From: Thermoprotei archaeon
Lineage (GTDB): Archaea > Thermoproteota > Thermoprotei_A > Sulfolobales > NBVN01
Reading direction: 5' to 3'
DNA length: 45,252 bases
NCBI GenBank assembly: GCA_003661745.1
Contig: QMWS01000001.1
Coordinates: 1 to 45,252 of the forward strand
The translations under genes and the position numbers were made by a program. A model generated the notes under the pieces. That model was given only the letters and a program-made list of their open reading frames with translations, was not told the origin of the DNA and did no database searches. Position 1 is the first letter of the stretch. Each line of letters opens with the position of its first letter. Below, in pieces: positions 1 to 45,252 of this stretch.

Positions 1-966
1 AGCAGGTTGATTATTGTCAAATATAGTAACCGCCATTGAAGAACCACAGGAACTCAAATCATAATTCCAGACATTGCCCGTCTTATTGGCACAAGCAACA
101 GAGTAAGAAATAACATGCTCCTCCTGCTTCTCTTCTTCCTCACTTACATTCTTCCCAGTAGAAGTTTTCTGAACCTCTGTAACTTTTTTGTTCAACTCCG
201 AAATCTGCCCAGATAACCTATCCAACATAGTTGTCAGATTCTCTATCTTACTATTCAAATCCCTAACTTGGTTCTGCAACCTTGTAATGTTCTCATCATA
301 ACTCTGCGAGACACTATGAGGTGGTTTTAAAGTCCACTTAGCAACAGGCAAAGTTATGTAAACAGGTTCAACGGATATGTTCAACATACACTTTGGTGAA
401 AGAACAATGTCCAACTTAGAACCCTCTATTGTAGAACCAAGAACCAACGCACATTCCTGTGGTTCTATCTCAACTTTGTATGTTGAAACATTTACAACCA
501 ATTCAGCTTGCTCACATTCATATACACCAGAGGTAACAGCTACACCACCAATGTACAAAGCATAGGACACCTGCTCAGTTTCAGAACTTGAACTCTCCTG
601 AGTAGTTGTAGTAGTAGTTTCACAAGGATTGGTAGATGTCAAACCAAACGAGGTTGAAAATGTCGTAGTAACAGTAACAACAGCAGCACCAACATCCGCA
701 AGTAGAACCTGCCCAACATACAAGGAGATGTCAGAATTTACTGAACGAGATGTATTTTCCGCAACAGTTCCTGACCAGTAATCGCTACAAGAGCGTTTCA
801 TTGTAAAGTATGCAAACTTCGTACCATTGTAAGTAAACACATCTTCAAGCTTCAATGCATAATCTGAAAAAACAATGTACTCTCCCCGTCTAACAGTTGC
901 AGAGTAGCTATCTGCAACAGCAACTGAAATCAATAACAAAACAATCGCAATACCTATGTGTCTCAT
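1..966 (-). CDS. surface/secreted glycoprotein candidate (partial, runs off window edge)
   Basis: Identical reverse-complement copy of 44287..45252 (see that entry). Confidence 0.8.
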   Translation of the reverse strand, partial: MRHIGIAIVLLLISVAVADSYSATVRRGEYIVFSDYALKLEDVFTYNGTKFAYFTMKRSCSDYWSGTVAENTSRSVNSDISLYVGQVLLADVGAAVVTVTTTFSTSFGLTSTNPCETTTTTTQESSSSETEQVSYALYIGGVAVTSGVYECEQAELVVNVSTYKVEIEPQECALVLGSTIEGSKLDIVLSPKCMLNISVEPVYITLPVAKWTLKPPHSVSQSYDENITRLQNQVRDLNSKIENLTTMLDRLSGQISELNKKVTEVQKTSTGKNVSEEEEKQEEHVISYSVACANKTGNVWNYDLSSCGSSMAVTIFDNNQPA

Positions 967-1019
967 AATTTCCCTATGGAAAATCACTTGTTTAAAAACC
1001 TTCTCTAAAAAATGTCTAA

Positions 1020-1799
1020 CTAAACCAAATAAGGATACAAGATGTTATACAAATGCCTCACAAACTCATCCTCTTCAAAAGGAACTCCTATCCTACCAAC
1101 CTTCTTGAACTTAAAGGCAATCTCATAAGGAGAATATCCCATTACAGGCAAAACAGGAAAAGATTTCGGAAACTTTATGAGAGTAACATCAAGTCGTTTT
1201 GCACGCCTATAAGCACTTCTCGTAAAAGCAGGTGCAATAATTATCAAATCGTAATATTCCTTGTTCCTAACCCTCCTACGATGTTTAGAATCTATATACG
1301 AAACCCCAACAGGATTTTCATACCTAATAGAAATATCAACAGCAACAAGCTTGGGACGAATATAAACATCTATCTTAGGAGAAGTATATGGTGAAACATA
1401 TATCTCCTTTCTACTTATTCCCAAATCATCCGCCAATTGATAACAAGCATCAACAAGTAATCTCTCTGCCTTTCTAGCAATCTCCTTATTTGCCTTATCA
1501 ACAAACTTGACAATCTCTTTTTTTTCATTGGCAAGTTTCTCCTTACCCACCCTATAATATATATTATAAGGATTAATCTCATCAGTATCATCAATAGGTG
1601 TCTTTGGTTTATGAGTCCTACCATACTCAATCATTTCAACCTTATCAGACTTGTAATAACCACGCAAAATACCAGAAGCAACTTCCTTATTTATCCCAAG
1701 CTTACGAGCAACTTCCCTAACATACATAGCTTCAGAAAACAGAGCATCAAGAACTTGTTTATACTTCAAACCAAGTTCAATGTCTTTCAAGGACACCAC
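1020..1799 (-). CDS. winged-helix DNA-binding protein with uncharacterised C-terminal domain
   Basis: Identical mirror copy of 43454..44233. Confidence 0.85.
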   Translation of the reverse strand: MVSLKDIELGLKYKQVLDALFSEAMYVREVARKLGINKEVASGILRGYYKSDKVEMIEYGRTHKPKTPIDDTDEINPYNIYYRVGKEKLANEKKEIVKFVDKANKEIARKAERLLVDACYQLADDLGISRKEIYVSPYTSPKIDVYIRPKLVAVDISIRYENPVGVSYIDSKHRRRVRNKEYYDLIIIAPAFTRSAYRRAKRLDVTLIKFPKSFPVLPVMGYSPYEIAFKFKKVGRIGVPFEEDEFVRHLYNILYPYLV

Positions 1800-2241
1800 C
1801 TATCTTACTATTAATATAATCCCTAAAAAATTTAAACCTACATAATCTCCTAAGCTCAAGATTGTCAAAATAACCATTTTCATAAAGCATTATAATATCA
1901 TCTGGTTCAAGAGTTACATACTCATCATCAACAACAACCGTAACCCTACCATGATGATTCTTTTTCAAACCCAACTGTCTAGCCTTGTTCAACACATCAA
2001 CAGAATCAACACCAAGATACTCAGCAATCTCATCCATTGTCATAACATTATAATTACTCACAAGAAAGCCAACCATTTCATCTGTCCATACTACCTTCCT
2101 CTTCCTCCTAATACCAAGTTCCTTAGCTTTAGCAACGACAGAATCAACACTCCTACCTATAAGCTCAGCAACCTTCTTTGCACCAGCATCTGGATAAACC
2201 TTCCTAAGAACTTCTATTTCCTCTTTGCTCCATCTTCTCAT
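1777..2241 (-). CDS. tandem Myb/SANT-like HTH DNA-binding protein
   Basis: Identical mirror copy of 43012..43476. Confidence 0.85.
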   Translation of the reverse strand: MRRWSKEEIEVLRKVYPDAGAKKVAELIGRSVDSVVAKAKELGIRRKRKVVWTDEMVGFLVSNYNVMTMDEIAEYLGVDSVDVLNKARQLGLKKNHHGRVTVVVDDEYVTLEPDDIIMLYENGYFDNLELRRLCRFKFFRDYINSKIGGVLERH

Positions 2242-2331
2242 AGTAGAACCTCGGTATCTCTCTACATATCAACCAAAGAGGAGTTTCCCTCCAAATTATC
2301 TTCAACCAAAATCCCCTATCAATTCCCCTCA

Positions 2332-2463
2332 TCATAACTCTCCTCTCTTAACCTTTTCGGCAATTGCTGAGAGCTTTGCACTCAATCTAAGCATTTCAAC
2401 CGCTATTTTATCCAAGCGAGTAGCTACATCTCGAAGATTTGTTATCAACTTCCCGTCTTGCAT
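2332..2463 (-). CDS. small coiled-coil protein (43 aa)
   Basis: Identical mirror copy of 42790..42921. Confidence 0.4.
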   Translation of the reverse strand: MQDGKLITNLRDVATRLDKIAVEMLRLSAKLSAIAEKVKRGEL

Positions 2464-2474
2464 TTCTATCCCAC

Positions 2475-2663
2475 CTATCCAAGTTCTACCTTGTCAATTA
2501 TTTCTATAATGTCCTCAACAAATTCCTTTCGCCATTTTCTTTTATACTTTTCAAGTGTCGAAACCTTGCCCTTACTCCTGAAGAATCGTTTAGCATTGTC
2601 AAAATTGCGTCCCCAAGCTTTTTCAATCATCAACATAATTTCCTCATACAATTCATCATCCAT
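2475..2663 (-). CDS. hypothetical protein (62 aa)
   Basis: Identical mirror copy of 42590..42778. Confidence 0.6.
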   Translation of the reverse strand: MDDELYEEIMLMIEKAWGRNFDNAKRFFRSKGKVSTLEKYKRKWRKEFVEDIIEIIDKVELG

Positions 2664-2895
2664 TACGCATCACCGCACTCTTGCTTACTATATCGTCGTT
2701 ACTTCCAATCAAAGCCTTCCGCACATTACGCATAACTATCTCTATTCCCTCCTCAAGAGCATCCCTGTATAAATTCAACAATATTTCTCGTGCTTTCCTT
2801 TCCTTCTCTTTTGGTATTCCTAATTCCTTCATCAAACTGTCCAAATATCTTTCAACTTTTGGATTAGATACTTCCGCCGCCGCCAATCCTCTCAT
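2656..2895 (-). CDS. hypothetical protein (79 aa)
   Basis: Identical mirror copy of 42358..42597. Confidence 0.7.
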   Translation of the reverse strand: MRGLAAAEVSNPKVERYLDSLMKELGIPKEKERKAREILLNLYRDALEEGIEIVMRNVRKALIGSNDDIVSKSAVMRNG

Positions 2896-2987
2896 CTCCT
2901 AAAACTTCTTATTAAGTAATATTGTCCGAGGTATTTATCCTTTGTCCTCAATTCTTTTAATTCCTCATACAAATTATCCACTCTCAC
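2892..2987 (-). CDS. possible small ORF (31 aa)
   Basis: Identical mirror copy of 42266..42361. Confidence 0.3.
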   Translation of the reverse strand: MRVDNLYEELKELRTKDKYLGQYYLIRSFRR

Positions 2988-2993
2988 AACCTC

Positions 2994-3449
2994 CTATCTT
3001 GCTAAACCTTCTTTCTTTAAAATTGAAGCAATGATATAAGCACGATTCCTTGCCTGATTGTAATCCAAACCAGACGAACTATCGTAATAAAATGCATTTC
3101 TTGTAATCAAAAATGCAACACCTTTATATGTCCAAACAACATAATTCTTATGTTTCTCAATTTCAACATAAAGTAAAGAACCACCCAAACTCCTTATGCG
3201 TCTCTGAGTTATTTTATCAATGTCAATCTCCTTAATATCAACCGGTTCAATCCTCAATCTATCATCATAGACATAGTAACGGTTCCCCGGATGGTAAACT
3301 TTTGCCGGTACAACCTTAATAAACGGAATAAGGACAAAATTACCCTTACGATATTCTATCCGAAAATAATCAGCTTTCATATCCTTAAAACGCTCTCTAA
3401 TTTCAGAAGGAACATATAACCATCTACCAACAACCTTCAAAAATTTCAT
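2994..3449 (-). CDS. SpoVT/AbrB-like domain protein
   Basis: Identical mirror copy of 41804..42259. Confidence 0.8.
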   Translation of the reverse strand: MKFLKVVGRWLYVPSEIRERFKDMKADYFRIEYRKGNFVLIPFIKVVPAKVYHPGNRYYVYDDRLRIEPVDIKEIDIDKITQRRIRSLGGSLLYVEIEKHKNYVVWTYKGVAFLITRNAFYYDSSSGLDYNQARNRAYIIASILKKEGLAR

Positions 3450-3493
3450 ATTTACAAAAAGGATATCACTTCAATAAAGAGATTTCGGTTCAA

Positions 3494-4024
3494 TTATTCA
3501 ACCTCAAATGCTACATAATCTTCGAAACCAGAACATTCCTCAATGTCATAAACATCCGCACTACCAATGACAACCTGCCCGTTAACAGCCAAAAGCACAG
3601 GCACAGTTTCAGAGAAACCTCTAACCTTTACATCTGAATAAAGATTTAACGGAAATCTCCTATAACAAGTTACCTTACCGCAACTTGCAACACAGACATA
3701 ATCTGCAATAGAAAACATCTCAGCATCTTCGATAGACGGCATACTACTGCAACTACGACAACCATGAATATGAACAGCAGCAACAGCATTTCCACACCTC
3801 CTAATCGTATCCTCAGTAATCACAGAAACAGGACCAACAGACAATGCAGAACCTTCTTCAAGAACAAAATACCTTCCATCCCGTTCACATACCAAAGCAG
3901 GATGTTCATCTAATGGAATATCTGAATATGTATCCTCCTTATATTTCTCCAAATAGCTCTTAATAGCACTTCTGACATCATTATAATACTCCATGCTCGT
4001 GGTCTCTTTCAACTGCCCGTCCAA
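3494..4024 (-). CDS. JAB/MPN-like metalloprotease candidate
   Basis: Identical mirror copy of 41229..41759. Confidence 0.8.
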   Translation of the reverse strand: MDGQLKETTSMEYYNDVRSAIKSYLEKYKEDTYSDIPLDEHPALVCERDGRYFVLEEGSALSVGPVSVITEDTIRRCGNAVAAVHIHGCRSCSSMPSIEDAEMFSIADYVCVASCGKVTCYRRFPLNLYSDVKVRGFSETVPVLLAVNGQVVIGSADVYDIEECSGFEDYVAFEVE

Positions 4025-4298
4025 TAACTGCCTTCTCTAACACCTTAACATTTTCACGCAAACTATCATAATCAACAGTATCCATCATAACAACAGATTC
4101 CAACCATGAAACAGCAGCACAGAAAGAAAAAGCATCCTCGACAAGGTCAGACATTGAATCTTTCTCTATATCCCTGAGCATACTCTCATAAGTACTGAAT
4201 ATCCTATCACAAGCACCTTTCATATTGTACTTATTACACAATGCCTGTATAACACCCTTCGCTACAGCAACTCTTAAATCTCTATCATCAAGGGACAT
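3981..4298 (-). CDS. Cys-motif helical paralog family member (105 aa)
   Basis: Identical mirror copy of 40955..41272. Confidence 0.75.
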   Translation of the reverse strand: MSLDDRDLRVAVAKGVIQALCNKYNMKGACDRIFSTYESMLRDIEKDSMSDLVEDAFSFCAAVSWLESVVMMDTVDYDSLRENVKVLEKAVIGRAVERDHEHGVL

Positions 4299-4620
4299 AT
4301 TGAGACCTAAAATTGGTTAAATCTATCACATTTGGTATCTGAGCAAATCCTCTTCCTTTCAAGTATTCTGCAAGTTTAATTGTAGTTGCATTTACATCCA
4401 TCTTCTCAGAGCGTTCCTTTATATCATACGGAGGATAATCGAAGTGCGATATAGCAGCACTTGCCTTAGGTCCAATTATGGATATAAATGTCAAATCTTC
4501 AACATCAGTCCAACCAACTCTCTCCAATAGTGGTTCATCATCTTTGTCAAACTTACAAACCAACGCAAGATACTCAGTTGCCTTGTCATATACCCTTGCA
4601 AGTTTACACTTCATCATCAA
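4288..4620 (-). CDS. hypothetical protein (110 aa)
   Basis: Identical mirror copy of 40633..40965. Confidence 0.75.
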   Translation of the reverse strand: MMMKCKLARVYDKATEYLALVCKFDKDDEPLLERVGWTDVEDLTFISIIGPKASAAISHFDYPPYDIKERSEKMDVNATTIKLAEYLKGRGFAQIPNVIDLTNFRSQYVP

Positions 4621-5083
4621 TCCCCTCCTTCAAATATTTTTCAAGTCCATATTCCTTTAAATGTTTTTCCCCAAACCACATCCACTCATCCCATTTTTTC
4701 TTAAACTCATATAACCTCATAAATCCTTTAACATGCCTAAATACACCAGTAATCAAAGGATTAGCTTCATTATAATACCCCAAAGAAATATCCTTCAAAA
4801 TATCCCTGAGAAAATTCCCATAATCAATATAACGATAACTGTCTGTCATCATCATCTTCCATACATCTCCACTTTCCAAAGAACCAACAAATCCCCACAC
4901 AGCATCCTTATACTTGTTAAACAACTCATATACCTCTGTACAAGCAGATTTACAAAATTCAGAATCATGATACCTAGCACAAATAGAATCACAAGAAGAG
5001 ATTATATCCTCTAACTCATTCATCTCTTTCTCAAGTACATCCCCCAGATACCGGATCCTCTTTATTCCAATAGCTAATACCAC
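4604..5083 (-). CDS. Cys-motif helical paralog family member (159 aa)
   Basis: Identical mirror copy of 40170..40649. Confidence 0.8.
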   Translation of the reverse strand: MVLAIGIKRIRYLGDVLEKEMNELEDIISSCDSICARYHDSEFCKSACTEVYELFNKYKDAVWGFVGSLESGDVWKMMMTDSYRYIDYGNFLRDILKDISLGYYNEANPLITGVFRHVKGFMRLYEFKKKWDEWMWFGEKHLKEYGLEKYLKEGIDDEV

Positions 5084-5415
5084 TATCTCAACTTCCTAGT
5101 AATTTCCCAATTATCCTCTAAATACTCATCAATCAAATAATAAATCTTAGTATCAATATCAAGCAAAGTTCTTGCATCATCATCAGAAACATTCCTCCTA
5201 ATAAATGACACATCATGACCCGCCAAAGAAGCAGATATCAAAGCTTTTGTAACATTTCCACTAGATATAGCTTCAACAAGCTCATCAACACTATTCATAT
5301 ACTCCTTACAAGCATTCTGAACAACTCTACCATACTTACTACACATCTTATTCAAACGCTCTCTAATCTTGCTCAGTTCGTAATTCAGCTCTTCCAAATC
5401 CATCCTTTCCACCAC
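5083..5415 (-). CDS. Cys-motif helical paralog family member (110 aa)
   Basis: Identical mirror copy of 39838..40170. Confidence 0.8.
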   Translation of the reverse strand: MVERMDLEELNYELSKIRERLNKMCSKYGRVVQNACKEYMNSVDELVEAISSGNVTKALISASLAGHDVSFIRRNVSDDDARTLLDIDTKIYYLIDEYLEDNWEITRKLR

Positions 5416-5749
5416 AGATACTCTTTATATAATCCTCAACAACCTCTGCATAACTCTTGTAAATATCCATCAAAGAACTAACAAACTCAGTAAGCTTACT
5501 ACATTCGAATGTAACATTCCTCAAAGAACCAATCAAACAACCAATGACATCTTCCTCTCCAAGACATTTCATAGTGTTACCAATGTAACGAGAAACATCC
5601 TTGCAAGAATACCATTGCCAACTACTCTGACTAAAGTAAGTGTTACAGGCATTATCAAATTCAACAGATAAATCCCATATCTTCGAGACAAATTCCTCTG
5701 GTGTCATCTCCATTCTACTCGCCCTCCTCAAATTCTCCTTCCTCTTCAA
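5363..5749 (-). CDS. Cys-motif helical paralog family member (128 aa)
   Basis: Identical mirror copy of 39504..39890. Confidence 0.8.
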   Translation of the reverse strand: MKRKENLRRASRMEMTPEEFVSKIWDLSVEFDNACNTYFSQSSWQWYSCKDVSRYIGNTMKCLGEEDVIGCLIGSLRNVTFECSKLTEFVSSLMDIYKSYAEVVEDYIKSICGGKDGFGRAELRTEQD

Positions 5750-6206
5750 CCGTTCTCCTCAACCAATTTGCATACTCACTAAAACATTCAACAGAACAGC
5801 ACTTCCTAAATACACGCTCAACAAGTACCTCATACTTCGAAGCACAACTCACAAGGTCTAAATAAGCTTCCACAAGCTCTTCCGTGGGTTTAACACTTAA
5901 TATTCCAAATAACAAAACATTCAAAGAATCAATAGCATCTATCATAGACCTAACTACATCCCCTCTTACTTCACTAAAAAACTCCTTAATTTCTCTGAAA
6001 GGTTCTAAAACCCATTCACAATCCACATTTGGATTGTACCATTTGTAAACCCTACAAGTCCTCCATACACAACGATATATATCATCAATCTCCTTATACA
6101 ACTGTTCTATCTCATCCAAACATCTTTCACTACAAGAATTACTCCTCACTACCCCACCTCTTCCTAGCACTAACATAAGCATCAAAGAATGTATCACAGC
6201 AGACAT
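5715..6206 (-). CDS. Cys-motif helical paralog family member (163 aa)
   Basis: Identical mirror copy of 39047..39538. Confidence 0.8.
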   Translation of the reverse strand: MSAVIHSLMLMLVLGRGGVVRSNSCSERCLDEIEQLYKEIDDIYRCVWRTCRVYKWYNPNVDCEWVLEPFREIKEFFSEVRGDVVRSMIDAIDSLNVLLFGILSVKPTEELVEAYLDLVSCASKYEVLVERVFRKCCSVECFSEYANWLRRTVEEEGEFEEGE

Positions 6207-6552
6207 CCATCAACTGTGCAAACGACTTCTTAAGTTCAAATTTAACTTTATGCAATTCATTCCAAATTTCCTTAAACTCTTCATCCCTCAAATAAATCCA
6301 AATAAAACCCTCAATACTCTCAGCAGAACTCACCACCTCATAACCTACAGAATAAGCATCACCCCTACCAACATCCTTAGCAACTGACTTCAAACTCCTA
6401 AACCAATATTCACAATCAGCTTCCCACTCTACAAACTCTTCATACCTTTTACAAAGATTAATAGCTCTATCATATAACTCAGAAACTTTCTCACGAAACT
6501 TATGTATCTCCTTCAAACATTTGTCATATTCTTCATCACTAATTACTACCAT
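6139..6552 (-). CDS. Cys-motif helical paralog family member (137 aa)
   Basis: Identical mirror copy of 38701..39114. Confidence 0.8.
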   Translation of the reverse strand: MVVISDEEYDKCLKEIHKFREKVSELYDRAINLCKRYEEFVEWEADCEYWFRSLKSVAKDVGRGDAYSVGYEVVSSAESIEGFIWIYLRDEEFKEIWNELHKVKFELKKSFAQLMDVCCDTFFDAYVSARKRWGSEE

Positions 6553-6932
6553 TAGAACTCACTCCACTCTTTCCCCATCTCCTCTCTCCATAGCTTTGAA
6601 TAAGGTTCTATACACCTATCTACCGTATATTCAAGATAAGAAGACAACGCCTTTGCATATTCCACCAATCCTAACGACGATAACCCAACAATAGCATCAA
6701 TCACATACCTTGCAAAATCTGTTTCACCATCCCACAACACATTCATAGCAGTATGTATATTATCCAAGGATTCCTTACACAATATACTCTCTCTTGAACC
6801 CGGTTCATACCTATTACAAACACCATCTTCCTTTAACTCACGAAGTAAATTCTTAAGCTCATACGACAACCCCTTCATAGCAGAAATACAAGAATCCACA
6901 TCAGAACGCCTAAAACAAATTTCCTCTACCAT
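6552..6932 (-). CDS. Cys-motif helical paralog family member (126 aa)
   Basis: Identical mirror copy of 38321..38701. Confidence 0.8.
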   Translation of the reverse strand: MVEEICFRRSDVDSCISAMKGLSYELKNLLRELKEDGVCNRYEPGSRESILCKESLDNIHTAMNVLWDGETDFARYVIDAIVGLSSLGLVEYAKALSSYLEYTVDRCIEPYSKLWREEMGKEWSEF

Positions 6933-6943
6933 TCTCTTACCTC

Positions 6944-7336
6944 CTACAATCTACTCTCTTCCTTCAAAGACTTCAGACATTCCTCAACATTATGCCTACA
7001 ACAGTCCCAGTACACAGACTTGAATGCAGATTCAAGACCTACTCGCATACCTATAAACCCATCATCATTCAACAACTCCGACAACGACCTAAAATAACCA
7101 CACACACCAACAAATTCCTCAAAAATAAATCCACTACCTCTTCCCATCTTATTCATCATATCATCAATATCCCCCAAAGCATGTTTACAATAAAGCGTTA
7201 TTGGTCCTTCAACACTTTTACACTTTTCTGCAACCTTAGCCCGTATATCTTTCAATACATTAAACAACCTTTCAAGAGCATTCTCACATTCCTTCTTTCT
7301 CCAATCTTCCATAATATCACCCCTCGATATATGCAA
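6944..7336 (-). CDS. Cys-motif helical paralog family member (130 aa)
   Basis: Identical mirror copy of 37917..38309. Confidence 0.8.
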   Translation of the reverse strand: MHISRGDIMEDWRKKECENALERLFNVLKDIRAKVAEKCKSVEGPITLYCKHALGDIDDMMNKMGRGSGFIFEEFVGVCGYFRSLSELLNDDGFIGMRVGLESAFKSVYWDCCRHNVEECLKSLKEESRL

Positions 7337-7613
7337 ATATTCTCTGCATTAAATCCCTTACAATATAATTTGCAGAAACATAATCACCAGCACGGATGTA
7401 ATCCTGAATTGCATAAACAGCAGAAGGGTCAATTGGAATATTACAGGCATCTGACAACCTAAGCAAGGATTCACCAAGTGCAGCTTCCCTGAAAAGAATG
7501 TCAAGGTTTTCAATTGGAAGATTAAACCTCAAAGCAACTTCCAAGGAACCCAAATCAACACCAACATCATACAAAGCCCTAACACATTCCTTTGACATCC
7601 TCATCTCTACCAC
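7317..7613 (-). CDS. hypothetical protein (98 aa)
   Basis: Identical mirror copy of 37640..37936. Confidence 0.75.
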   Translation of the reverse strand: MVEMRMSKECVRALYDVGVDLGSLEVALRFNLPIENLDILFREAALGESLLRLSDACNIPIDPSAVYAIQDYIRAGDYVSANYIVRDLMQRIFAYIEG

Positions 7614-7876
7614 CCATAAACCTCATAGTCCTTTGCAATCTTCTTACGAATAACACCACACGAGGCACCCGGATATTTATCAACAATATCCATACAAGCA
7701 TCAACCACATCTTCATATCTTCCGATAAATAAAACATCCTCCATTCTACCTTCCTTCTTTGCAAAGCAGAGTATCTTCTTTTCATCTAAAAAAGAGCAAA
7801 TCTCATCAACAACATCAGCAGGTGCTGATAAATGTCCAAACACTACATTACCAATAAGCTTTAATTCTGATTCCAT
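7607..7876 (-). CDS. hypothetical protein (89 aa)
   Basis: Identical mirror copy of 37377..37646. Confidence 0.75.
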   Translation of the reverse strand: MESELKLIGNVVFGHLSAPADVVDEICSFLDEKKILCFAKKEGRMEDVLFIGRYEDVVDACMDIVDKYPGASCGVIRKKIAKDYEVYGW

Positions 7877-7911
7877 AAAACCAACAACACACAGGGAGTA
7901 TAAAAATGTTT

Positions 7912-8679
7912 CTAAATCTCCTGATAATACTTCTTATCAAGGAAATCAATCACACATCCAAGAGTCCCTACATCACCACTAAACTTCAAATCAGTTCTAA
8001 CAGTAAAATGATTATAAGAAGTGTGGTCAATAAAGGCATCAACACTAACATCCTTAGCAAAACAATTACTAACACCAGCAACAATATCAGCAACGAAAAC
8101 ATCCTTATACTTCTCATAAAATTTCATAACAGAATCCCTACCCCAATCAAACTTCATAACCTCATCAAACAGATTCCTCATCAAAACACCGTAATAACGA
8201 ACATTAAACCTAATACGATTATCCTCCCGCTTAACTGTTCCACCAAGTGATTCAATCTCCTCTACAAATCCTTTAACAGCATCCTCTGGTATATTCTCAG
8301 GAACTTCAACCTCACAAGAATATTCCTCTCCATACTTCTTACAATCAGCAAGAGCAACCAAGCATTCCCAAGTATTCATTTCAGAAGATAAACATTTCTC
8401 AGCAGCAATATCCTTAAAATATTCTTCGGGAACAGTACCTGAGATAAAAGCACGGAACTTATAATCAACGAAGATTTTCCTCCTTCTAACATTCAAATGA
8501 ATGTCCTTTCCCTCACTATGACAAGTTACATCAAAAATACCGTGTCCTGTTTGATAAATGACATCACACACAAGTCCGTGTTTTTCCAAATTGTCTGCAA
8601 TTTCTTCCATATCATACCTACTAACCATTGACAATATCAAAAGAAGCCACAATATATAAAAGTTTGCAAAACAATACAT
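7912..8679 (-). CDS. hypothetical protein (255 aa)
   Basis: Identical mirror copy of 36574..37341. Confidence 0.85.
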   Translation of the reverse strand: MYCFANFYILWLLLILSMVSRYDMEEIADNLEKHGLVCDVIYQTGHGIFDVTCHSEGKDIHLNVRRRKIFVDYKFRAFISGTVPEEYFKDIAAEKCLSSEMNTWECLVALADCKKYGEEYSCEVEVPENIPEDAVKGFVEEIESLGGTVKREDNRIRFNVRYYGVLMRNLFDEVMKFDWGRDSVMKFYEKYKDVFVADIVAGVSNCFAKDVSVDAFIDHTSYNHFTVRTDLKFSGDVGTLGCVIDFLDKKYYQEI

Positions 8680-8690
8680 TATCTATAAAA

Positions 8691-9017
8691 TCAATCCGTC
8701 ATAGCCAGTGTCAAACCAAGCAATAACAAAGCAGCAGAATCAATAGCAATTGCCACTGGCGAAAATACATAAAAAGACCAACACAAAACAGCACCAACCA
8801 AAACAAAAGGAACCTCCAACCTTTCACCTAAAATAAAATATGACGACATAAAAAACACAATAGCTGAAATCAAACAGAACAACAAACCACAACCTTGGAA
8901 AAAACTATTCCTAAAAGACTCAGATACCACAGCAATTACATAAAAAAACCCAGCATAACTATACCAAAAGAAATCATACAAATACCAATTCCACTCCTCT
9001 ATAATCCTCATACCCAT
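8691..9017 (-). CDS. small multi-pass membrane protein (108 aa)
   Basis: Identical mirror copy of 36236..36562. Confidence 0.8.
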   Translation of the reverse strand: MGMRIIEEWNWYLYDFFWYSYAGFFYVIAVVSESFRNSFFQGCGLLFCLISAIVFFMSSYFILGERLEVPFVLVGAVLCWSFYVFSPVAIAIDSAALLLLGLTLAMTD

Positions 9018-9155
9018 ATATAACTCTAAATATCAAACATTTATAAAACTTTCCACAACATCAAGAACGGTTCCAGCCTACAACTCACCAATTTATATTC
9101 CTCCAACACGATTCCCATAAAAGTATTCTGCATTAATAAAACTTTCTCATATCAA

Positions 9156-9689
9156 TTAACAACCTGATTCACTACCAGCAGTATCTATTCTAGAACGATA
9201 TATCACCTCACTACATCCCGTAGCATTACCATAACAAATCATACCTATAACATATCCATGCTTCTTTCTATAACAGCTCCCAACACGGCAATCCTCATCA
9301 ACATATGCATAGCAGAATATATAGTTTTCAGGTTTCTTCACATTTCTAAAATAATACGAATCAGAAAACTTACTGAAAGCCTCCAAGTATACTGGTGTCA
9401 TATTAGTGTATGTCTTATTATCAACAATACACACTATACCACGAACAGCAATAGTTCCGTTAAAAACACAAATTCCCGGAGTTCTAAACGAAACCAACAA
9501 ACCATTATTGAAAAACCGTATCTCTTCAAGAGGTTCATCATATATAGCATATACGGCAAAATCCATCTTCTTCTCTGGTTTCTCAACAGGTTTTTTATAA
9601 GAACTAAACAAAGACACAATAGAAATCATCAAAATAACCAAAGCAAGAAGTGCAAGATGCTTAAGTTTCTTCATTTCATTCTCTTCCAT
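9156..9689 (-). CDS. N-terminally anchored/secreted Cys-rich protein (177 aa)
   Basis: Identical mirror copy of 35564..36097. Confidence 0.85.
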   Translation of the reverse strand: MEENEMKKLKHLALLALVILMISIVSLFSSYKKPVEKPEKKMDFAVYAIYDEPLEEIRFFNNGLLVSFRTPGICVFNGTIAVRGIVCIVDNKTYTNMTPVYLEAFSKFSDSYYFRNVKKPENYIFCYAYVDEDCRVGSCYRKKHGYVIGMICYGNATGCSEVIYRSRIDTAGSESGC

Positions 9690-9691
9690 AT

Positions 9692-9934
9692 TTACACCTC
9701 CACAGACACACCTCTAAACAATACAACAGTTTCACCATCCATCCTACCACATTTAATCCACAACCTCTTACCCTTTATCTGCTTCAACACATACACAACA
9801 TTGTTTATAATCCTAAACTTTCTACCTCCGAACTCAAAATACTTTCCAACATTGAAATCATAAAGATAAACCCTGTAATACCTACCATTAAACCGCAACC
9901 AAGTTAACATTCTTAACACCATCCACAACCTCAT
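9692..9934 (-). CDS. hypothetical protein (80 aa)
   Basis: Identical mirror copy of 35319..35561. Confidence 0.6.
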   Translation of the reverse strand: MRLWMVLRMLTWLRFNGRYYRVYLYDFNVGKYFEFGGRKFRIINNVVYVLKQIKGKRLWIKCGRMDGETVVLFRGVSVEV

Positions 9935-10559
9935 AAATAAGCTTAGAATCAGTATTCATTGAATACTTAACAGCACGATAAGCTCTCAAAATAGGATTCA
10001 CAACCCCCATCCTATCAAGAACAGATTTGACATAGGCAACAACCTTAGGTGCATAATCCCTTGGGTTATACCCAGCAAGAGTTAGCAACTTATATGTCAT
10101 AGAAACATACTTTTCCAAAAAATACGATGTCAGGGGAGCAACATAAGAAAAAACCATAACATTCTTCAACCATTTCTTAAAATAAAATGTTCTCTTAAAC
10201 TCATAAACAGAACCATCAACAGAATCAAAAAGACCTAACCCCCTTGGAACATACAACCGATACAAACCACATTTAGGTTTATAGAGCTTCAATTCACCTT
10301 TAGAATCATAACAAATACCAAAAGATTTCATATCTCTATCAAGAAGGACAAACTTAAACCTCTTCTTATACCTTCCAAGTTCAGACACAATAACCTTATA
10401 ATCTGGAAAATAAATGAACCGATTCTTATATACAAAAATCCACCAATCGAAATCCTCCTCTGAAACATTTCTCTTTGGTTTATGCTTTCTTACCCTCTTA
10501 GCACCAAAAAACTTAATCAAATCATCAATTGGATATCCTACTTCTTCCTTACGAACCAC
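9888..10559 (-). CDS. hypothetical protein (223 aa)
   Basis: Identical mirror copy of 34694..35365. Confidence 0.85.
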   Translation of the reverse strand: MVRKEEVGYPIDDLIKFFGAKRVRKHKPKRNVSEEDFDWWIFVYKNRFIYFPDYKVIVSELGRYKKRFKFVLLDRDMKSFGICYDSKGELKLYKPKCGLYRLYVPRGLGLFDSVDGSVYEFKRTFYFKKWLKNVMVFSYVAPLTSYFLEKYVSMTYKLLTLAGYNPRDYAPKVVAYVKSVLDRMGVVNPILRAYRAVKYSMNTDSKLIYEVVDGVKNVNLVAV

Positions 10560-10750
10560 CTCGCAGTACCTCCTTTAACCTCTCTATCTACATAACCATA
10601 CATCCTCATCATTTTAAGCTCCTGTATAACAGTTGTCAAAAGATATTTCTTACCTTCAACCCTCAAAGCATTGTGAATATCCTCAGCAGTTGGTTTAATC
10701 CCCTTACTGTTGAACTTCTTTATAATCCTCACTATGTCATCGTTTAACAT
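10538..10750 (-). CDS. small winged-helix DNA-binding protein (70 aa)
   Basis: Identical mirror copy of 34503..34715. Confidence 0.8.
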   Translation of the reverse strand: MLNDDIVRIIKKFNSKGIKPTAEDIHNALRVEGKKYLLTTVIQELKMMRMYGYVDREVKGGTARWFVRKK

Positions 10751-10790
10751 AAAACAAATTAGAAATCAGTTGTTTAAAAATCTTCCTTCT

Positions 10791-11018
10791 CTAAATCTTA
10801 AGCAACTCCTCCTTGCTCAATAATTCCTTACCGATATACCTCCTACCCTTAAAAATCTTCATAACATTTCCCTTAACAACAGCACGACAGATTACATCAT
10901 CATCCTTATAAACATCATACTTCTTTCCATCCCCAGAATTGCCCTTATATATGACGTGTGTCGGTATATCACCTACAACCTTACTAATTTTGTACAGAAT
11001 CGAATCCATATTTACCAA
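10791..11018 (-). CDS. hypothetical protein (75 aa)
   Basis: Identical mirror copy of 34235..34462. Confidence 0.7.
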   Translation of the reverse strand: MVNMDSILYKISKVVGDIPTHVIYKGNSGDGKKYDVYKDDDVICRAVVKGNVMKIFKGRRYIGKELLSKEELLKI

Positions 11019-11021
11019 AAA

Positions 11022-11273
11022 TTACACCTCCAACCTTCTCCTAATCAACTCAGCAGTTTCCTTGTCTAAAAAAGGGAGCAATTCGTTTATAATTTTTACT
11101 AATCTCAAATAGGCAAAATACACAGCACCATCCCTTGCATTTATACCCGTCAACCTCATCTCCTCAGCAAGAACACTTAACTCCTTTACAACATCTCTAA
11201 TTTTTTCCCTCACCATACCACCCATCCAAAGAAGATTTTTCACGAGCAGTTTTCCTCCTAATATATGCCTCAA
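11022..11273 (-). CDS. hypothetical protein (83 aa)
   Basis: Identical mirror copy of 33980..34231. Confidence 0.65.
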   Translation of the reverse strand: MRHILGGKLLVKNLLWMGGMVREKIRDVVKELSVLAEEMRLTGINARDGAVYFAYLRLVKIINELLPFLDKETAELIRRRLEV

Positions 11274-11771: not shown

Positions 11772-11779
11772 ATCACCTC

Positions 11780-15673: not shown

Positions 15674-15721
15674 ATGGAAAAATCAACATTCAGTTCTTAA
15701 AAAAGATTATGCAAAGACAAA

Positions 15722-16405: not shown

Positions 16406-16439
16406 AAACTTAAAAAACTATCTACCAAACAAATAAAAT

Positions 16440-16646: not shown

Positions 16647-16647
16647 A

Positions 16648-18604: not shown

Positions 18605-18641
18605 ACCACTTATATTATACCTTATATATTATATATATACA

Positions 18642-18863: not shown

Positions 18864-18872
18864 CCTATCACC

Positions 18873-43011: not shown

Positions 43012-43476
43012 ATGAGAAGATGGAGCAAAGAGGAAATAGAAGTTCTTAGGAAGGTTTATCCAGATGCTGGTGCAAAGAAGGTTGCTGAGCTTATAGGTAG
43101 GAGTGTTGATTCTGTCGTTGCTAAAGCTAAGGAACTTGGTATTAGGAGGAAGAGGAAGGTAGTATGGACAGATGAAATGGTTGGCTTTCTTGTGAGTAAT
43201 TATAATGTTATGACAATGGATGAGATTGCTGAGTATCTTGGTGTTGATTCTGTTGATGTGTTGAACAAGGCTAGACAGTTGGGTTTGAAAAAGAATCATC
43301 ATGGTAGGGTTACGGTTGTTGTTGATGATGAGTATGTAACTCTTGAACCAGATGATATTATAATGCTTTATGAAAATGGTTATTTTGACAATCTTGAGCT
43401 TAGGAGATTATGTAGGTTTAAATTTTTTAGGGATTATATTAATAGTAAGATAGGTGGTGTCCTTGAAAGACATTGA
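43012..43476 (+). CDS. tandem Myb/SANT-like (GcrA-N-like) HTH DNA-binding protein
   Basis: Internal duplication: WSKEEIEVLRKVYP..VAELIGRSVDSVVAKAKELGI and WTDEMVGFLVSNYN..IAEYLGVDSVDVLNKARQLGL. Confidence 0.85.
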   Translation: MRRWSKEEIEVLRKVYPDAGAKKVAELIGRSVDSVVAKAKELGIRRKRKVVWTDEMVGFLVSNYNVMTMDEIAEYLGVDSVDVLNKARQLGLKKNHHGRVTVVVDDEYVTLEPDDIIMLYENGYFDNLELRRLCRFKFFRDYINSKIGGVLERH

Positions 43477-44233
43477 ACTTGGTTTGAAGTATAAACAAGT
43501 TCTTGATGCTCTGTTTTCTGAAGCTATGTATGTTAGGGAAGTTGCTCGTAAGCTTGGGATAAATAAGGAAGTTGCTTCTGGTATTTTGCGTGGTTATTAC
43601 AAGTCTGATAAGGTTGAAATGATTGAGTATGGTAGGACTCATAAACCAAAGACACCTATTGATGATACTGATGAGATTAATCCTTATAATATATATTATA
43701 GGGTGGGTAAGGAGAAACTTGCCAATGAAAAAAAAGAGATTGTCAAGTTTGTTGATAAGGCAAATAAGGAGATTGCTAGAAAGGCAGAGAGATTACTTGT
43801 TGATGCTTGTTATCAATTGGCGGATGATTTGGGAATAAGTAGAAAGGAGATATATGTTTCACCATATACTTCTCCTAAGATAGATGTTTATATTCGTCCC
43901 AAGCTTGTTGCTGTTGATATTTCTATTAGGTATGAAAATCCTGTTGGGGTTTCGTATATAGATTCTAAACATCGTAGGAGGGTTAGGAACAAGGAATATT
44001 ACGATTTGATAATTATTGCACCTGCTTTTACGAGAAGTGCTTATAGGCGTGCAAAACGACTTGATGTTACTCTCATAAAGTTTCCGAAATCTTTTCCTGT
44101 TTTGCCTGTAATGGGATATTCTCCTTATGAGATTGCCTTTAAGTTCAAGAAGGTTGGTAGGATAGGAGTTCCTTTTGAAGAGGATGAGTTTGTGAGGCAT
44201 TTGTATAACATCTTGTATCCTTATTTGGTTTAG
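43454..44233 (+). CDS. winged-helix DNA-binding protein with uncharacterised C-terminal domain (259 aa)
   Basis: GTG start. N-terminal wHTH-like YVREVARKLGINKEVASGILRGYYKSDKVEMIEYG. The C-terminal domain (KIDVYIRPKLVAVDISIRYENP...YDLIIIAPAF) is only speculatively nuclease-like. Confidence 0.85.
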   Translation: MVSLKDIELGLKYKQVLDALFSEAMYVREVARKLGINKEVASGILRGYYKSDKVEMIEYGRTHKPKTPIDDTDEINPYNIYYRVGKEKLANEKKEIVKFVDKANKEIARKAERLLVDACYQLADDLGISRKEIYVSPYTSPKIDVYIRPKLVAVDISIRYENPVGVSYIDSKHRRRVRNKEYYDLIIIAPAFTRSAYRRAKRLDVTLIKFPKSFPVLPVMGYSPYEIAFKFKKVGRIGVPFEEDEFVRHLYNILYPYLV

Positions 44234-44254
44234 TTAGACATTTTTTAGAGAAGG

Positions 44255-44262
44255 TTTTTAAA
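44255..44262 (+). promoter_or_regulatory. TATA-box candidate (TTTTTAAA)
   Basis: Upstream flank GAGAAGG. About 29 nt upstream of ATG 44287. Mirror 991-998. Confidence 0.5.
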
Positions 44263-44286
44263 CAAGTGATTTTCCATAGGGAAATT

Positions 44287-45252
44287 ATGAGACACATAGG
44301 TATTGCGATTGTTTTGTTATTGATTTCAGTTGCTGTTGCAGATAGCTACTCTGCAACTGTTAGACGGGGAGAGTACATTGTTTTTTCAGATTATGCATTG
44401 AAGCTTGAAGATGTGTTTACTTACAATGGTACGAAGTTTGCATACTTTACAATGAAACGCTCTTGTAGCGATTACTGGTCAGGAACTGTTGCGGAAAATA
44501 CATCTCGTTCAGTAAATTCTGACATCTCCTTGTATGTTGGGCAGGTTCTACTTGCGGATGTTGGTGCTGCTGTTGTTACTGTTACTACGACATTTTCAAC
44601 CTCGTTTGGTTTGACATCTACCAATCCTTGTGAAACTACTACTACAACTACTCAGGAGAGTTCAAGTTCTGAAACTGAGCAGGTGTCCTATGCTTTGTAC
44701 ATTGGTGGTGTAGCTGTTACCTCTGGTGTATATGAATGTGAGCAAGCTGAATTGGTTGTAAATGTTTCAACATACAAAGTTGAGATAGAACCACAGGAAT
44801 GTGCGTTGGTTCTTGGTTCTACAATAGAGGGTTCTAAGTTGGACATTGTTCTTTCACCAAAGTGTATGTTGAACATATCCGTTGAACCTGTTTACATAAC
44901 TTTGCCTGTTGCTAAGTGGACTTTAAAACCACCTCATAGTGTCTCGCAGAGTTATGATGAGAACATTACAAGGTTGCAGAACCAAGTTAGGGATTTGAAT
45001 AGTAAGATAGAGAATCTGACAACTATGTTGGATAGGTTATCTGGGCAGATTTCGGAGTTGAACAAAAAAGTTACAGAGGTTCAGAAAACTTCTACTGGGA
45101 AGAATGTAAGTGAGGAAGAAGAGAAGCAGGAGGAGCATGTTATTTCTTACTCTGTTGCTTGTGCCAATAAGACGGGCAATGTCTGGAATTATGATTTGAG
45201 TTCCTGTGGTTCTTCAATGGCGGTTACTATATTTGACAATAATCAACCTGCT
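44287..45252 (+). CDS. surface/secreted glycoprotein candidate (partial; 322 codons, no stop before window edge)
   Basis: Translated by hand, and absent from the ORF track because it has no stop codon. Signal-peptide-like MRHIGIAIVLLLISVAVA, a Thr/Ser-rich linker (TTTFSTSFGLTSTNPCETTTTTTQESSSSE), the coiled-coil segment ITRLQNQVRDLNSKIENLTTMLDRLSGQISELNKKV, and 8 N-x-S/T sequons. Confidence 0.8.
   Translation, partial: MRHIGIAIVLLLISVAVADSYSATVRRGEYIVFSDYALKLEDVFTYNGTKFAYFTMKRSCSDYWSGTVAENTSRSVNSDISLYVGQVLLADVGAAVVTVTTTFSTSFGLTSTNPCETTTTTTQESSSSETEQVSYALYIGGVAVTSGVYECEQAELVVNVSTYKVEIEPQECALVLGSTIEGSKLDIVLSPKCMLNISVEPVYITLPVAKWTLKPPHSVSQSYDENITRLQNQVRDLNSKIENLTTMLDRLSGQISELNKKVTEVQKTSTGKNVSEEEEKQEEHVISYSVACANKTGNVWNYDLSSCGSSMAVTIFDNNQPA

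What the first reader, a model, noticed from the sequence alone, without database searches (positions are those of the whole stretch)
1..45252. Entire window is one perfect 45,252-bp palindrome (two 22,626-bp arms, no spacer)
Every ORF in the supplied track has a partner whose coordinates sum to 45253 and whose translation is identical. Examples are 1020..1799(-) with 43454..44233(+), and 18873..20657(-) with 24596..26380(+). I hand-checked the first and last 60 nt and an internal pair near 21481/23772. The axis falls between 22626 and 22627 (..GCTCGGAT|ATCCGAGC..) with no unique loop, so only 22,626 bp are unique. Almost all genes point away from the axis, and the outer ends cut a gene mid-frame.

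There are three explanations:
(a) A linear dsDNA replicon with a covalently closed hairpin telomere that sequencing or assembly read around.
(b) A head-to-head replicative dimer junction, as made by hairpin-ended replicons (rudiviruses, poxviruses, N15/Borrelia-type telomeres). A mismatch-free junction is the N15/Borrelia style.
(c) A fold-back artefact from MDA template switching, a missed adapter in a long-read library, or assembly-graph traversal.
Basis: partly seen in the sequence, partly recalled or inferred. Interest (0 to 1): 0.9.

Follow-up and report, generated by a model that had tools for sequence, protein, structure and literature searches.

The report
Assembly folded around a DNA telomere
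The 45-kb "palindrome" is one 22.6-kb stretch that the assembler wrote out twice, because it turned around at what is most likely the self-complementary (hairpin-type) end of a new, roughly 77-kb linear archaeal virus or plasmid from Guaymas Basin hydrothermal sediment.

Summary
The window equals its own reverse complement with 0 mismatches, and the axis lies at 22626|22627.

The window is an Illumina/MEGAHIT contig from a Guaymas Basin sediment metagenome. It is also deposited as a "Thermoprotei" MAG contig.

The 2x duplication comes from de Bruijn graph traversal:
- The window's outer ends overlap the next contig by exactly k = 123.
- A SPAdes assembly of the same strain gives a single-copy 77,573-bp contig. 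By coordinate arithmetic it ends 38 nt past the axis, which is (77-1)/2.

The turning point itself is reproducible. A second MEGAHIT assembly (148,032 = 2 x 74,016 bp) and a Logan contig of a 98.1%-identical strain from another run (7,292 = 2 x 3,646 bp) fold at the same base. No contig on record continues past the axis into other sequence.

The region next to the axis looks like a chromosome end. It has 2 kb of mostly non-coding DNA with iteron-like repeats, then an MCM-like helicase gene. All genes point away from the axis for 59 kb, with extreme strand skew.

Best reading (about 0.7): a perfectly palindromic telomere, either a hairpin or its replicated head-to-head junction, of a novel linear archaeal element.

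Limits: no reads were inspected, no resolvase gene was found in the 60 kb seen, and the far end was not reached.

The parts
1..22626 (-). Left arm: the exact reverse-complement copy of 22627-45252. It is a second read-out of the same unitig, not independent sequence.
   Evidence: 0 mismatches to own reverse complement. (outer end overlaps the next JGI contig by exactly 123 nt, the MEGAHIT k_max). (the same strain is single-copy in SPAdes contig NODE_253).
22627..45252 (+). The unique 22,626-bp arm. It is the left-terminal part of an element of at least 77.5 kb, with about 48 called genes, nearly all on this strand and pointing away from the axis.
   Evidence: The arm extends collinearly to 60,056 bp via L005, L006, L009 and L022.
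22611..22642 (.). The junction itself: the spacer-free palindromic core (...CATATGCTCGGAT|ATCCGAGCATATG...) centred on 22626|22627. The 32 nt given here are the minimum that real reads must contain for the k = 31 Logan contig to fold. This is the putative hairpin tip or replicated-telomere junction.
   Evidence: The same axis is found in k141_315791 (148,032 bp) and in the 98.1%-identical strain SRR22214793_91. By coordinates, SPAdes NODE_253 ends 38 nt past it. No contig continues beyond it.
22627..23348 (+). Terminal 722-bp stretch with no called gene (mirror 21905-22626). It holds short stem-loops, for example TTGCCCC-TTCG-GGGGCAA at 22668-22684 (mirror 22569-22585).
   Evidence: The overall fold energy is not exceptional (z = -0.74), so the stem-loops are descriptive only.
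23349..23747 (+). First gene from the end (132 aa, ORFan; mirror 21506-21904). Function unknown.
   Evidence: No Pfam hit. Only a weak PCNA-like hint (E = 0.13). The AF2 model is unusable (pLDDT 33).
23750..23889 (+). T-rich tract (23750-23791) followed by iteron-like GTATTAC/GTAATAC repeats (23826-23889, about 6 copies forming a 29-nt imperfect inverted repeat). Candidate replication-origin element upstream of the helicase gene. Mirror 21364-21503.
   Evidence: families D7, I1, I12; period 11, 6.2 copies. The origin function is inferred, not shown.
24596..26380 (+). 594-aa MCM-like AAA+ ATPase with C-terminal winged-helix domains (mirror 18873-20657). Probable replicative helicase or initiator, 2 kb from the axis.
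   Evidence: weak AAA hits. (only 13 remote homologues among 1.84 billion representatives). (profile matches MCM7 over about 290 positions). (AF2 core pLDDT about 75-85; the top 50 Foldseek PDB hits are all MCM, E about 1e-11 to 1e-12).
44287..45252 (+). 5' part of a 456-aa gene (signal peptide, Thr-rich region, coiled coil, C-terminal transmembrane segment) cut by the contig end (mirror 1-966).
   Evidence: NCBI 'partial' RLG78530.1 / RLG78615.1. One search shows the cut is a k = 123 graph break.

Best explanation
The window is a MEGAHIT unitig that runs along one end of a linear dsDNA archaeal mobile element (virus or plasmid, at least 77.5 kb, 36% G+C, Guaymas Basin sediment). It crosses a perfectly self-complementary telomere and returns along the complementary strand, so 22,626 bp of unique sequence is printed twice.

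What is physically real is the junction. Some reads contain ...GCTCGGAT|ATCCGAGC... across the axis. Such reads arise if the two strands are covalently joined at the end (a hairpin telomere). They also arise if replication produces head-to-head dimers whose junction is the duplex copy of that hairpin. These are two states of the same replicon.

Inferred mechanism (not shown):
- Replication starts in the roughly 2-kb terminal non-coding region, which carries a T-rich tract and GTATTAC iterons, next to an element-encoded MCM-like helicase.
- It proceeds inward, co-directionally with transcription.
- One strand is left single-stranded long enough to lose C by deamination, which would explain the extreme G+T-rich sense strand.
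- The palindromic junction is then resolved back to hairpins by an enzyme not yet identified.
For: 1. Perfect palindrome.

2. The same axis appears in independent assemblies:
- ENA MEGAHIT contig k141_315791 is 148,032 bp with the axis at 74,016, exactly half.
- Logan contig SRR22214793_91 is 7,292 = 2 x 3,646 bp. It is a 98.1%-identical strain (66 substitutions over the 3.5 kb that align) from another run and another assembler, and it folds at the identical base.

3. SPAdes contig NODE_253 (77,573 bp, coverage 47) of the same strain is not palindromic. By coordinates its end lies 38 nt past the axis. That is exactly (k-1)/2 for k = 77, where a de Bruijn path meets its own reverse complement.

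4. Only four contigs in the ENA/JGI/NCBI/Logan index carry the gene nearest the end, and none runs past the axis into other sequence.

5. The data are Illumina 2x151 with MEGAHIT, and the methods describe no amplification.

6. The context looks like an end:
- 722 bp next to the axis has no called gene, and the first 2 kb holds one small gene.
- That region carries iteron-like repeats, followed by an MCM-like gene.
- All genes point away from the axis for 59 kb.
- GC skew is +0.2 to +0.6, and four-fold sites are T 59% / C 5%.
- Both gene orientation and skew flip at about 59 kb.
- This is the two-unequal-replichore layout reported for linear archaeal Borgs and mini-Borgs, which are thought to replicate from their ends.

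7. Hairpin telomeres are known to appear in assemblies as terminal inverse duplications (Borrelia).

8. A junction with an asymmetric loop (poxvirus type) would leave a non-palindromic centre in a de Bruijn contig, and none is seen in three contigs.
Against: - No reads were examined. Multi-k assemblers carry earlier contigs forward, so only a palindromic 24-mer (MEGAHIT k = 23) or 32-mer (Logan k = 31) needs read support. The covalent continuity of the strands is not demonstrated.
- The 38-nt overshoot of NODE_253 is computed from coordinates. The contig end itself could not be fetched.
- In Borrelia, Illumina gave no coverage over true hairpin tips. Abundant crossing reads would therefore favour dimer junctions or an open palindromic end over read-through of a closed hairpin.
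- No protelomerase, Hjc-type resolvase, rudiviral Rep, integrase or capsid gene was detected in the 60 kb seen (precomputed Pfam).
- The last 17.5 kb and the other end were never seen.
- One Logan contig of the main strain stops 82 nt short of the axis for an unknown reason.
Confidence: 0.7

Rival explanations
1. Open-ended linear genome with a short natural terminal palindrome. The molecule ends a few tens of nucleotides beyond the axis, as an extended duplex palindrome or after in-vitro self-priming of a terminal inverted repeat during end repair. Because no other path exists in the graph, the assemblers fold back and mirror the whole arm.
For: MEGAHIT at k = 23 and Logan at k = 31 need only a 24- or 32-nt palindromic word from reads (k-list). 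Multi-k assemblers propagate earlier contigs to higher k. The Logan contig that stops 82 nt before the axis and the report of poor Illumina coverage over closed hairpins are compatible with a non-closed end.
Against: Self-priming leaves an asymmetric loop at the centre unless the loop is itself palindromic, and here the centre is perfectly symmetric in three contigs. The SPAdes contig appears to reach the full 38 nt allowed by k = 77. An extended palindromic terminus is itself a state of hairpin or rolling-hairpin replication, so this rival differs mainly in whether the end is closed.
Confidence: 0.15
2. The molecule really is a giant inverted duplication. It would be a stable head-to-head dimer, or a palindromic linear or circular replicon of at least 150 kb, rather than a hairpin-ended monomer.
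For: Short-read graphs cannot distinguish a hairpin monomer from its head-to-head dimer. Contigs of 148 kb and 45 kb are palindromic.
Against: The palindromic contigs have the axis exactly at their midpoint, and their outer ends are graph breaks. That is what traversal of a single unitig gives. SPAdes reports single-copy sequence with uniform naming and coverage. Nothing requires two physical arms.
Confidence: 0.08
3. An internal perfect palindrome lies inside a longer or circular genome, and the assemblers took the wrong exit.
For: The Logan contig break at arm offset 82 would fit a branch at about 112 nt from the axis with k = 31.
Against: A branch of equal coverage at the palindrome boundary should have broken the MEGAHIT and Logan palindromic contigs and stopped SPAdes before the axis. 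Instead three contigs run straight through for 3.6-74 kb, and SPAdes appears to reach axis+38. No contig holding the 'other side' exists among those carrying the adjacent gene.
Confidence: 0.04
4. A random technical chimera: MDA template switching, a missed adapter in a long-read library, or a chance insert-insert ligation.
For: Fold-back chimeras are common in amplified or long-read libraries in general (established knowledge, not tested here).
Against: The library was Illumina 2x151 from directly extracted DNA with no amplification described. The same base-exact axis recurs in a different run with a 1.9%-diverged strain and in three assemblers. Terminus-to-terminus ligation of the few end-containing fragments is numerically negligible (inference).
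Confidence: 0.03

Closest known systems
Hairpin telomeres resolved by protelomerase (Borrelia ResT; phages N15 TelN, phiKO2 TelK; Agrobacterium TelA)
   Same: The replicated junction is a perfect palindrome with no spacer at the very end of a linear dsDNA replicon. In assemblies such ends show up as terminal inverse duplications.
   Different: The setting is archaeal and hydrothermal. No protelomerase-like protein was detected in 60 of about 77.5 kb. The junction sequence was not compared against known telomere sites. Borrelia hairpins were not covered by Illumina reads, whereas this junction was assembled from Illumina data.
Rudiviridae (SIRV1/2, ARV1): archaeal linear dsDNA viruses with covalently closed ends and head-to-head replicative intermediates (from my own knowledge, and references 24-25 of PMC13107129 seen)
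   Same: An archaeal, thermophile-associated linear dsDNA element in which head-to-head junctions would give exactly this kind of palindromic read.
   Different: The genome is two to three times larger. There is no nucleotide match and no tblastn match for three large proteins to GenBank viral records. No Rep or Hjc Pfam hits were found. Graph behaviour argues against a long (more than about 70 nt) inverted terminal repeat, whereas rudiviruses have repeats of up to about 2 kb.
Borgs and mini-Borgs (linear extrachromosomal elements of Methanoperedens)
   Same: Linear, low G+C (about 32-36%), with mostly hypothetical proteins (about 85% unannotated in mini-Borgs). There are two replichores of very unequal length, each coding on one strand, with GC skew indicating replication from the ends. 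Mini-Borgs are 52-145 kb.
   Different: No pervasive perfect tandem repeats. No long terminal inverted repeat is evident. The habitat differs and the host is probably different. No shared proteins were tested. The physical nature of the ends is not addressed in the Borg and mini-Borg papers I searched.
Poxvirus / ASFV / chlorovirus hairpin termini
   Same: Covalently closed ends with concatemer junctions during replication.
   Different: Those hairpins are incompletely base-paired (flip and flop forms), so their junctions are imperfect palindromes. Here the centre is perfectly symmetric.
Palindromic unitigs produced by de Bruijn graph assemblers
   Same: Contig length is exactly 2 x arm, the axis is exactly central, the arms are identical, and the outer ends are k-mer overlaps with neighbouring contigs.
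   Different: This explains the duplication but not why real reads contain the junction at one reproducible base.

Membership tests
De Bruijn graph fold-back (palindromic unitig) | Contig is exactly 2 x one arm, with the axis at the midpoint and identical arms | tested here: met
   Window 2 x 22,626. k141_315791 is 2 x 74,016 and SRR22214793_91 is 2 x 3,646.
De Bruijn graph fold-back (palindromic unitig) | Outer ends are graph branch points (overlap of k with the neighbouring contig), and the same strain is single-copy in an assembler that does not re-traverse the edge | tested here: met
   123-nt overlaps equal to k_max. SPAdes NODE_253 is single-copy.
Random fold-back chimera (MDA, missed adapter) | The junction position is arbitrary and not reproducible between libraries; the library is amplified or long-read | tested here: not met
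   Identical axis in another run, strain and assembler. Illumina library, no amplification described.
Hairpin-telomere linear replicon (general) | Sequence reads cross a spacer-free palindromic junction located at the physical end, and nothing continues beyond it | tested here: met
   At the level of assemblies only. Not checked on reads.
Hairpin-telomere linear replicon (general) | Strands are covalently continuous at the end (snap-back, exonuclease resistance) | not testable with these tools
   Needs DNA or native long reads.
Hairpin-telomere linear replicon (general) | The second end has the same structure | not tested
   Arm offsets 60,057-77,535 could not be fetched.
Protelomerase (N15/Borrelia) type | Encodes a telomere resolvase (tyrosine-recombinase-like protelomerase) | tested here: inconclusive
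   No Pfam or PHROG hit in the 60 kb seen (and precomputed Pfam). 17.5 kb is unseen, and the large ORFans (496, 654 and 961 aa) are unassigned.
Rudiviridae type | Long inverted terminal repeats, rudiviral Rep plus Hjc-type resolvase, and the Ligamenvirales capsid protein | tested here: inconclusive
   None detected by Pfam or PHROGs, and no tblastn match to GenBank viral records for three proteins. An inverted terminal repeat longer than about 70 nt is unlikely from graph behaviour (inference). The far end is unseen.
Borg / mini-Borg type | Linear; two unequal single-strand-coding replichores with skew from the ends | tested here: met
   Orientation and skew flip at about 59 kb of at least 77.5 kb. 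Definition.
Borg / mini-Borg type | Pervasive perfect tandem direct repeats; long inverted terminal repeats; shared marker proteins | tested here: not met
   TRF finds only a few short imperfect arrays in 60 kb. Inverted terminal repeats and marker proteins were not tested.

The most novel reading that the evidence does not exclude
This would be the first archaeal linear replicon outside the Rudiviridae with covalently closed, perfectly palindromic hairpin telomeres. It is a roughly 77-kb element made almost entirely of unannotated genes, with Borg-like replichore architecture. It replicates inward from a telomere-adjacent origin using its own MCM-like helicase, and it resolves its telomeres with an enzyme unrelated to known protelomerases or Hjc/Rep systems. 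It would also suggest how Borg-type linear archaeal elements protect their ends.
Probability: 0.3. Interest if true: 0.75.

Novelty: new member of a known kind. Interest (0 to 1): 0.55.

Why it matters
Practical points:
- A public MAG contig (a "Thermoprotei archaeon" bin, proteins RLG78530-RLG78615) is half duplicate sequence, and every protein on it is deposited twice.
- Pieces of the same element sit in bins of two different lineages, so host assignment by binning is wrong for at least one of them.
- Whole-contig palindromes in short-read metagenomes should not simply be discarded as artefacts. When the axis is reproducible, they flag the physical ends of linear replicons.

Biological points: very few archaeal replicons are known to have hairpin ends, and all of them are small rudiviruses. 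A 77-kb element with its own MCM-like helicase at the telomere, extreme strand asymmetry and no recognisable resolvase would make archaeal telomere resolution directly testable. It would also make testable the end structure of Borg-like linear elements.

Tried and rejected
- Exact-pattern scans for the axis-proximal sequence found nothing in IMG/VR, JGI metagenome contigs or GTDB genomes. The window's own contig is evidently not in those collections.
- Megablast of the arm against GenBank phage/archaeal virus records and against PLSDB plasmids gave no match. tblastn of the 594-, 654- and 961-aa proteins gave no match.
- The search for related loci in IMG/VR with the MCM-like, 961-aa and mini-MCM proteins, and in GTDB genomes with the mini-MCM, found nothing.
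- I walked along SPAdes contig NODE_253 via exact-protein look-ups and reached 50 kb. A TnpB search returned only a partial representative. The far 17.5 kb and the other end were therefore not reached.
- NODE_253's axis end could not be displayed, because the tool collapses it as 'similar' to the palindromic contig.
- A look-up of the ORF spanning the axis found nothing on record.
- The Rfam hit to mir-7131 at the axis is just the perfect hairpin and was rejected. There are no tRNAs.
- The AF2 model of the 132-aa telomere-proximal protein is unusable (pLDDT 33).
- The stem-loops next to the axis are not more stable than shuffled sequence (z = -0.74).
- No paralogue families were found among the 65 called proteins of the first 30.8 kb.
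- Other TnpB-bearing contigs share nothing else with the element.
- The Rep-Arvir paper is not relevant to this element.

Full report
**1. Observation**

The window is identical to its own reverse complement (0 mismatches in 45,252 nt). The axis lies between 22626 and 22627 (...GCTCGGAT|ATCCGAGC...) with no spacer. The outer ends truncate a 456-aa gene. Only 22,626 bp are unique.

**2. Provenance**

The 594-aa protein at 24596-26380 has no 90% cluster besides its own among 5.8 billion clusters. Its cluster members tie the window to several records:
- a JGI contig of exactly 45,252 bp;
- NCBI proteins RLG78571.1 and RLG78574.1 (locus tags DRO14_00210 and DRO14_00225) of a "Thermoprotei archaeon" MAG;
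- partial proteins RLG78530.1 and RLG78615.1 at the two contig ends.

The adjoining JGI contig names the sample as IMG 3300014911 (Ga0180301). This is Guaymas Basin hydrothermal sediment. DNA was extracted directly with the MO BIO kit, sequenced on Illumina HiSeq 2x151, and assembled by JGI with MEGAHIT using k = 23,43,63,83,103,123 (PMC6478937). There were no long reads, and the methods describe no amplification.

**3. Why the arm is written twice**

The window's outer end overlaps the next JGI contig (Ga0180301_10000646, 26,981 bp) by exactly 123 nt, the largest k. That contig overlaps the following one (Ga0180301_10000874, 23,811 bp) by 123 nt as well. The window is therefore one unitig of the k = 123 graph, bounded by a branch. 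It was traversed outward-in, across the axis, and back.

An independent SPAdes assembly of the same strain (ENA ERZ1742239, NODE_253, 77,573 bp, coverage 47) is 100% identical to the arm over the 12,241 nt compared, and it is single-copy. From the record coordinates, arm position 1 corresponds to NODE_253 position 77,535. The contig therefore runs 38 nt beyond the axis. That is exactly (77-1)/2, the point at which a k = 77 path meets its own reverse complement. This figure is computed, because the tool would not display that end.

**4. The turning point is reproducible**

- ENA ERZ27227320 contig k141_315791 (MEGAHIT, k = 141) is 148,032 bp with the axis at 74,016, again a whole-contig palindrome. 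It differs from the window by one synonymous base in 13,754.
- Logan contig SRR22214793_91 is 7,292 = 2 x 3,646 bp. It comes from another run and another assembler (k = 31) and is a different strain, with 66 substitutions over the 3.5 kb that align (98.1% identity). It folds at the identical base.
- Across the ENA/JGI/NCBI/Logan gene index, only four contigs carry the gene nearest the axis. Two are palindromic, one by coordinates ends at axis+38, and one (Logan SRR6823441_66725) stops 82 nt short. None continues into other sequence.

A random chimera cannot explain this pattern. An internal palindrome in a longer genome should have produced an equal-coverage branch that breaks these contigs, and it did not.

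**5. What the assemblies do not prove**

Multi-k assemblers feed earlier contigs into later rounds. Read support is therefore strictly required only for a palindromic 24-mer (MEGAHIT) or 32-mer (Logan).

A Borrelia study reports that closed hairpin tips got no Illumina coverage, while ONT reads wrapped around them and produced 5-18 kb terminal inverse duplications in assemblies (10.1101/2025.07.18.665644). The crossing reads here may therefore come from replicated head-to-head junctions, or from an extended open palindromic terminus, rather than from read-through of a closed hairpin. These are states of the same kind of telomere, and I cannot separate them without reads.

The perfect symmetry of the arms is by construction. 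Only the symmetry of the central tens of nucleotides is informative. It argues against a poxvirus-type mismatched hairpin, which would leave a non-palindromic centre.

**6. The element**

By exact-protein look-ups and one metagenome scan I extended the arm collinearly to 60,056 bp.

Layout of the first 2.6 kb from the axis:

| Distance from axis | Feature |
|---|---|
| 0-722 bp | no called gene; short stem-loops |
| 723-1,121 bp | 132-aa ORFan |
| 1,124-1,165 bp | T-rich tract |
| about 1,200-1,263 bp | about six GTATTAC/GTAATAC iteron-like repeats |
| from 1,970 bp | 594-aa helicase-like gene |

The 594-aa protein has an ATPase core (residues about 177-460) with only 13 remote homologues among 1.84 billion representatives. 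A profile of these matches MCM7 in the PDB. An AF2 model built with that alignment (core pLDDT about 75-85) has MCM subunits as all of its top 50 Foldseek hits, at E about 1e-11 to 1e-12. Winged-helix domains follow at the C-terminus.

Further along, the recognisable genes are:
- YdjM-like, Na/Ca-exchanger and CAAX-protease membrane proteins;
- an AAA_24/Sak4-like ATPase;
- a DEDDh exonuclease (RNase_H_2, E = 1e-16);
- a TnpB gene, where the JGI assembly breaks (71% identical to a Thermococcus nautili TnpB);
- an N4/N6 methyltransferase;
- an Eco57I-type restriction-modification protein;
- a 335-aa mini-MCM (PF00493, E = 1.7e-10) on the opposite strand at about 59 kb.

Everything else is ORFan, including proteins of 961, 654 and 496 aa. 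No nucleotide match for the arm or protein match for three large proteins exists in GenBank phage/archaeal-virus records, and no nucleotide match exists in PLSDB. No capsid, integrase, protelomerase, Hjc or Rep signature was found in the 60 kb seen.

**7. Strand asymmetry**

The sense strand has GC skew of +0.2 to +0.6 throughout. At four-fold degenerate sites the composition is T 59%, A 21%, G 15%, C 5%, and non-coding DNA is skewed too (+0.32). Skew and gene orientation flip together at about 59 kb.

This gives a long and a short replichore, each coding on one strand and pointing away from its end. The same layout is described for Borgs and mini-Borgs, which are linear archaeal elements of 52 kb to 1 Mb with low G+C, inferred to replicate from their termini. 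The element lacks their pervasive perfect tandem repeats, and homology was not tested.

A G+T-rich, C-poor strand is what cytosine deamination on a strand left single-stranded would produce, as in strand-displacement replication. That link is inference from established knowledge.

**8. Verdict**

The 45-kb palindrome as printed is an assembly representation. The junction at its centre most likely marks a real, perfectly self-complementary telomere, either a hairpin or its replicated dimer junction, of a novel linear archaeal mobile element of at least 77.5 kb (confidence about 0.7).

Rivals:
- an open end with a short natural terminal palindrome, or in-vitro self-priming (0.15);
- a physically dimeric palindromic replicon (0.08);
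- a mis-traversed internal palindrome (0.04);
- a random chimera (0.03).

As a kind of feature it is known, namely hairpin-telomere replicons and assembly wrap-around. As an instance it is new and sits in an almost entirely unannotated genome. The mechanism of telomere resolution is open, because no known resolvase was found and 17.5 kb plus the second end remain unseen.

Noticed in passing
window 22627-45252 and extension to arm offset 60,056 (L005, L006, L009, L022): Extreme strand compositional asymmetry. GC skew is +0.2 to +0.6, and four-fold degenerate sites are T 59% / A 21% / G 15% / C 5% on the sense strand. Non-coding DNA is also skewed. The sign flips together with gene orientation at about 59 kb.
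   Followed up: partly
whole window; L007/L010 (Ga0180301_10000646 = NCBI QMQW01000002.1); L022 (Ga0180301_10000874): Adjacent pieces of one element were binned into two public MAGs of different lineages: 'Thermoprotei archaeon' DRO14 and 'Ca. Methanomethylicota archaeon' DRJ18 (GCA_003650625.1). Every protein of the window is deposited twice in NCBI. Host assignment by binning is unreliable here.
   Followed up: partly
L003 7170-7292 (mirror 1-123): The 98.1%-identical strain from SRR22214793 diverges completely from the window after arm offset 3,522. This truncates the MCM-like gene to 517 aa, and the new 124 nt are C-rich (opposite skew). It looks like an insertion or rearrangement breakpoint.
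   Followed up: no
L002 position 1 = window 22709: The Logan contig of the main strain stops 82 nt short of the axis, although MEGAHIT crosses it and SPAdes appears to reach it. The cause could be a graph branch (arm index 81 or 112) or coverage tapering toward a closed end.
   Followed up: no
L009 18978-20324 / L022 3-746 (arm offsets about 48.7-50.1 kb): An IS200/605-type TnpB (465 aa) lies inside the element. It is 66-82% identical to many hydrothermal metagenome copies and 71% identical to a Thermococcus nautili TnpB. The JGI assembly breaks within it.
   Followed up: partly
L009 16125-18773: Possible recombination module: an AAA_24/Sak4-like ATPase (239 aa), a DEDDh 3'-5' exonuclease (190 aa, RNase_H_2 E = 1e-16), and a 199-aa ORFan with a '...VHEVK...' motif reminiscent of PD-(D/E)xK nucleases. 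The 199-aa protein has no database support.
   Followed up: partly
L022 3673-10665: Defence and replication genes near the replichore junction: an N4/N6 DNA methyltransferase with an adjacent 202-aa PD-(D/E)xK-looking ORF, a 933-aa Eco57I-type restriction-modification protein, and a 335-aa mini-MCM on the opposite strand. The mini-MCM is distantly related to the 594-aa MCM-like protein (hhalign 89%).
   Followed up: partly
window 22574-22679: The Rfam 'mir-7131' match (59.6 bits, below the gathering score) on both strands is simply the perfect palindrome scoring as a hairpin. It is spurious.
   Followed up: yes
window 30691-31017; L006 7246-8154 and 13749-14495: Host-like membrane proteins are carried by the element: a YdjM-like protein, a Na+/Ca2+ exchanger (302 aa) and an Rce1-like CAAX protease (248 aa).
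   Followed up: no
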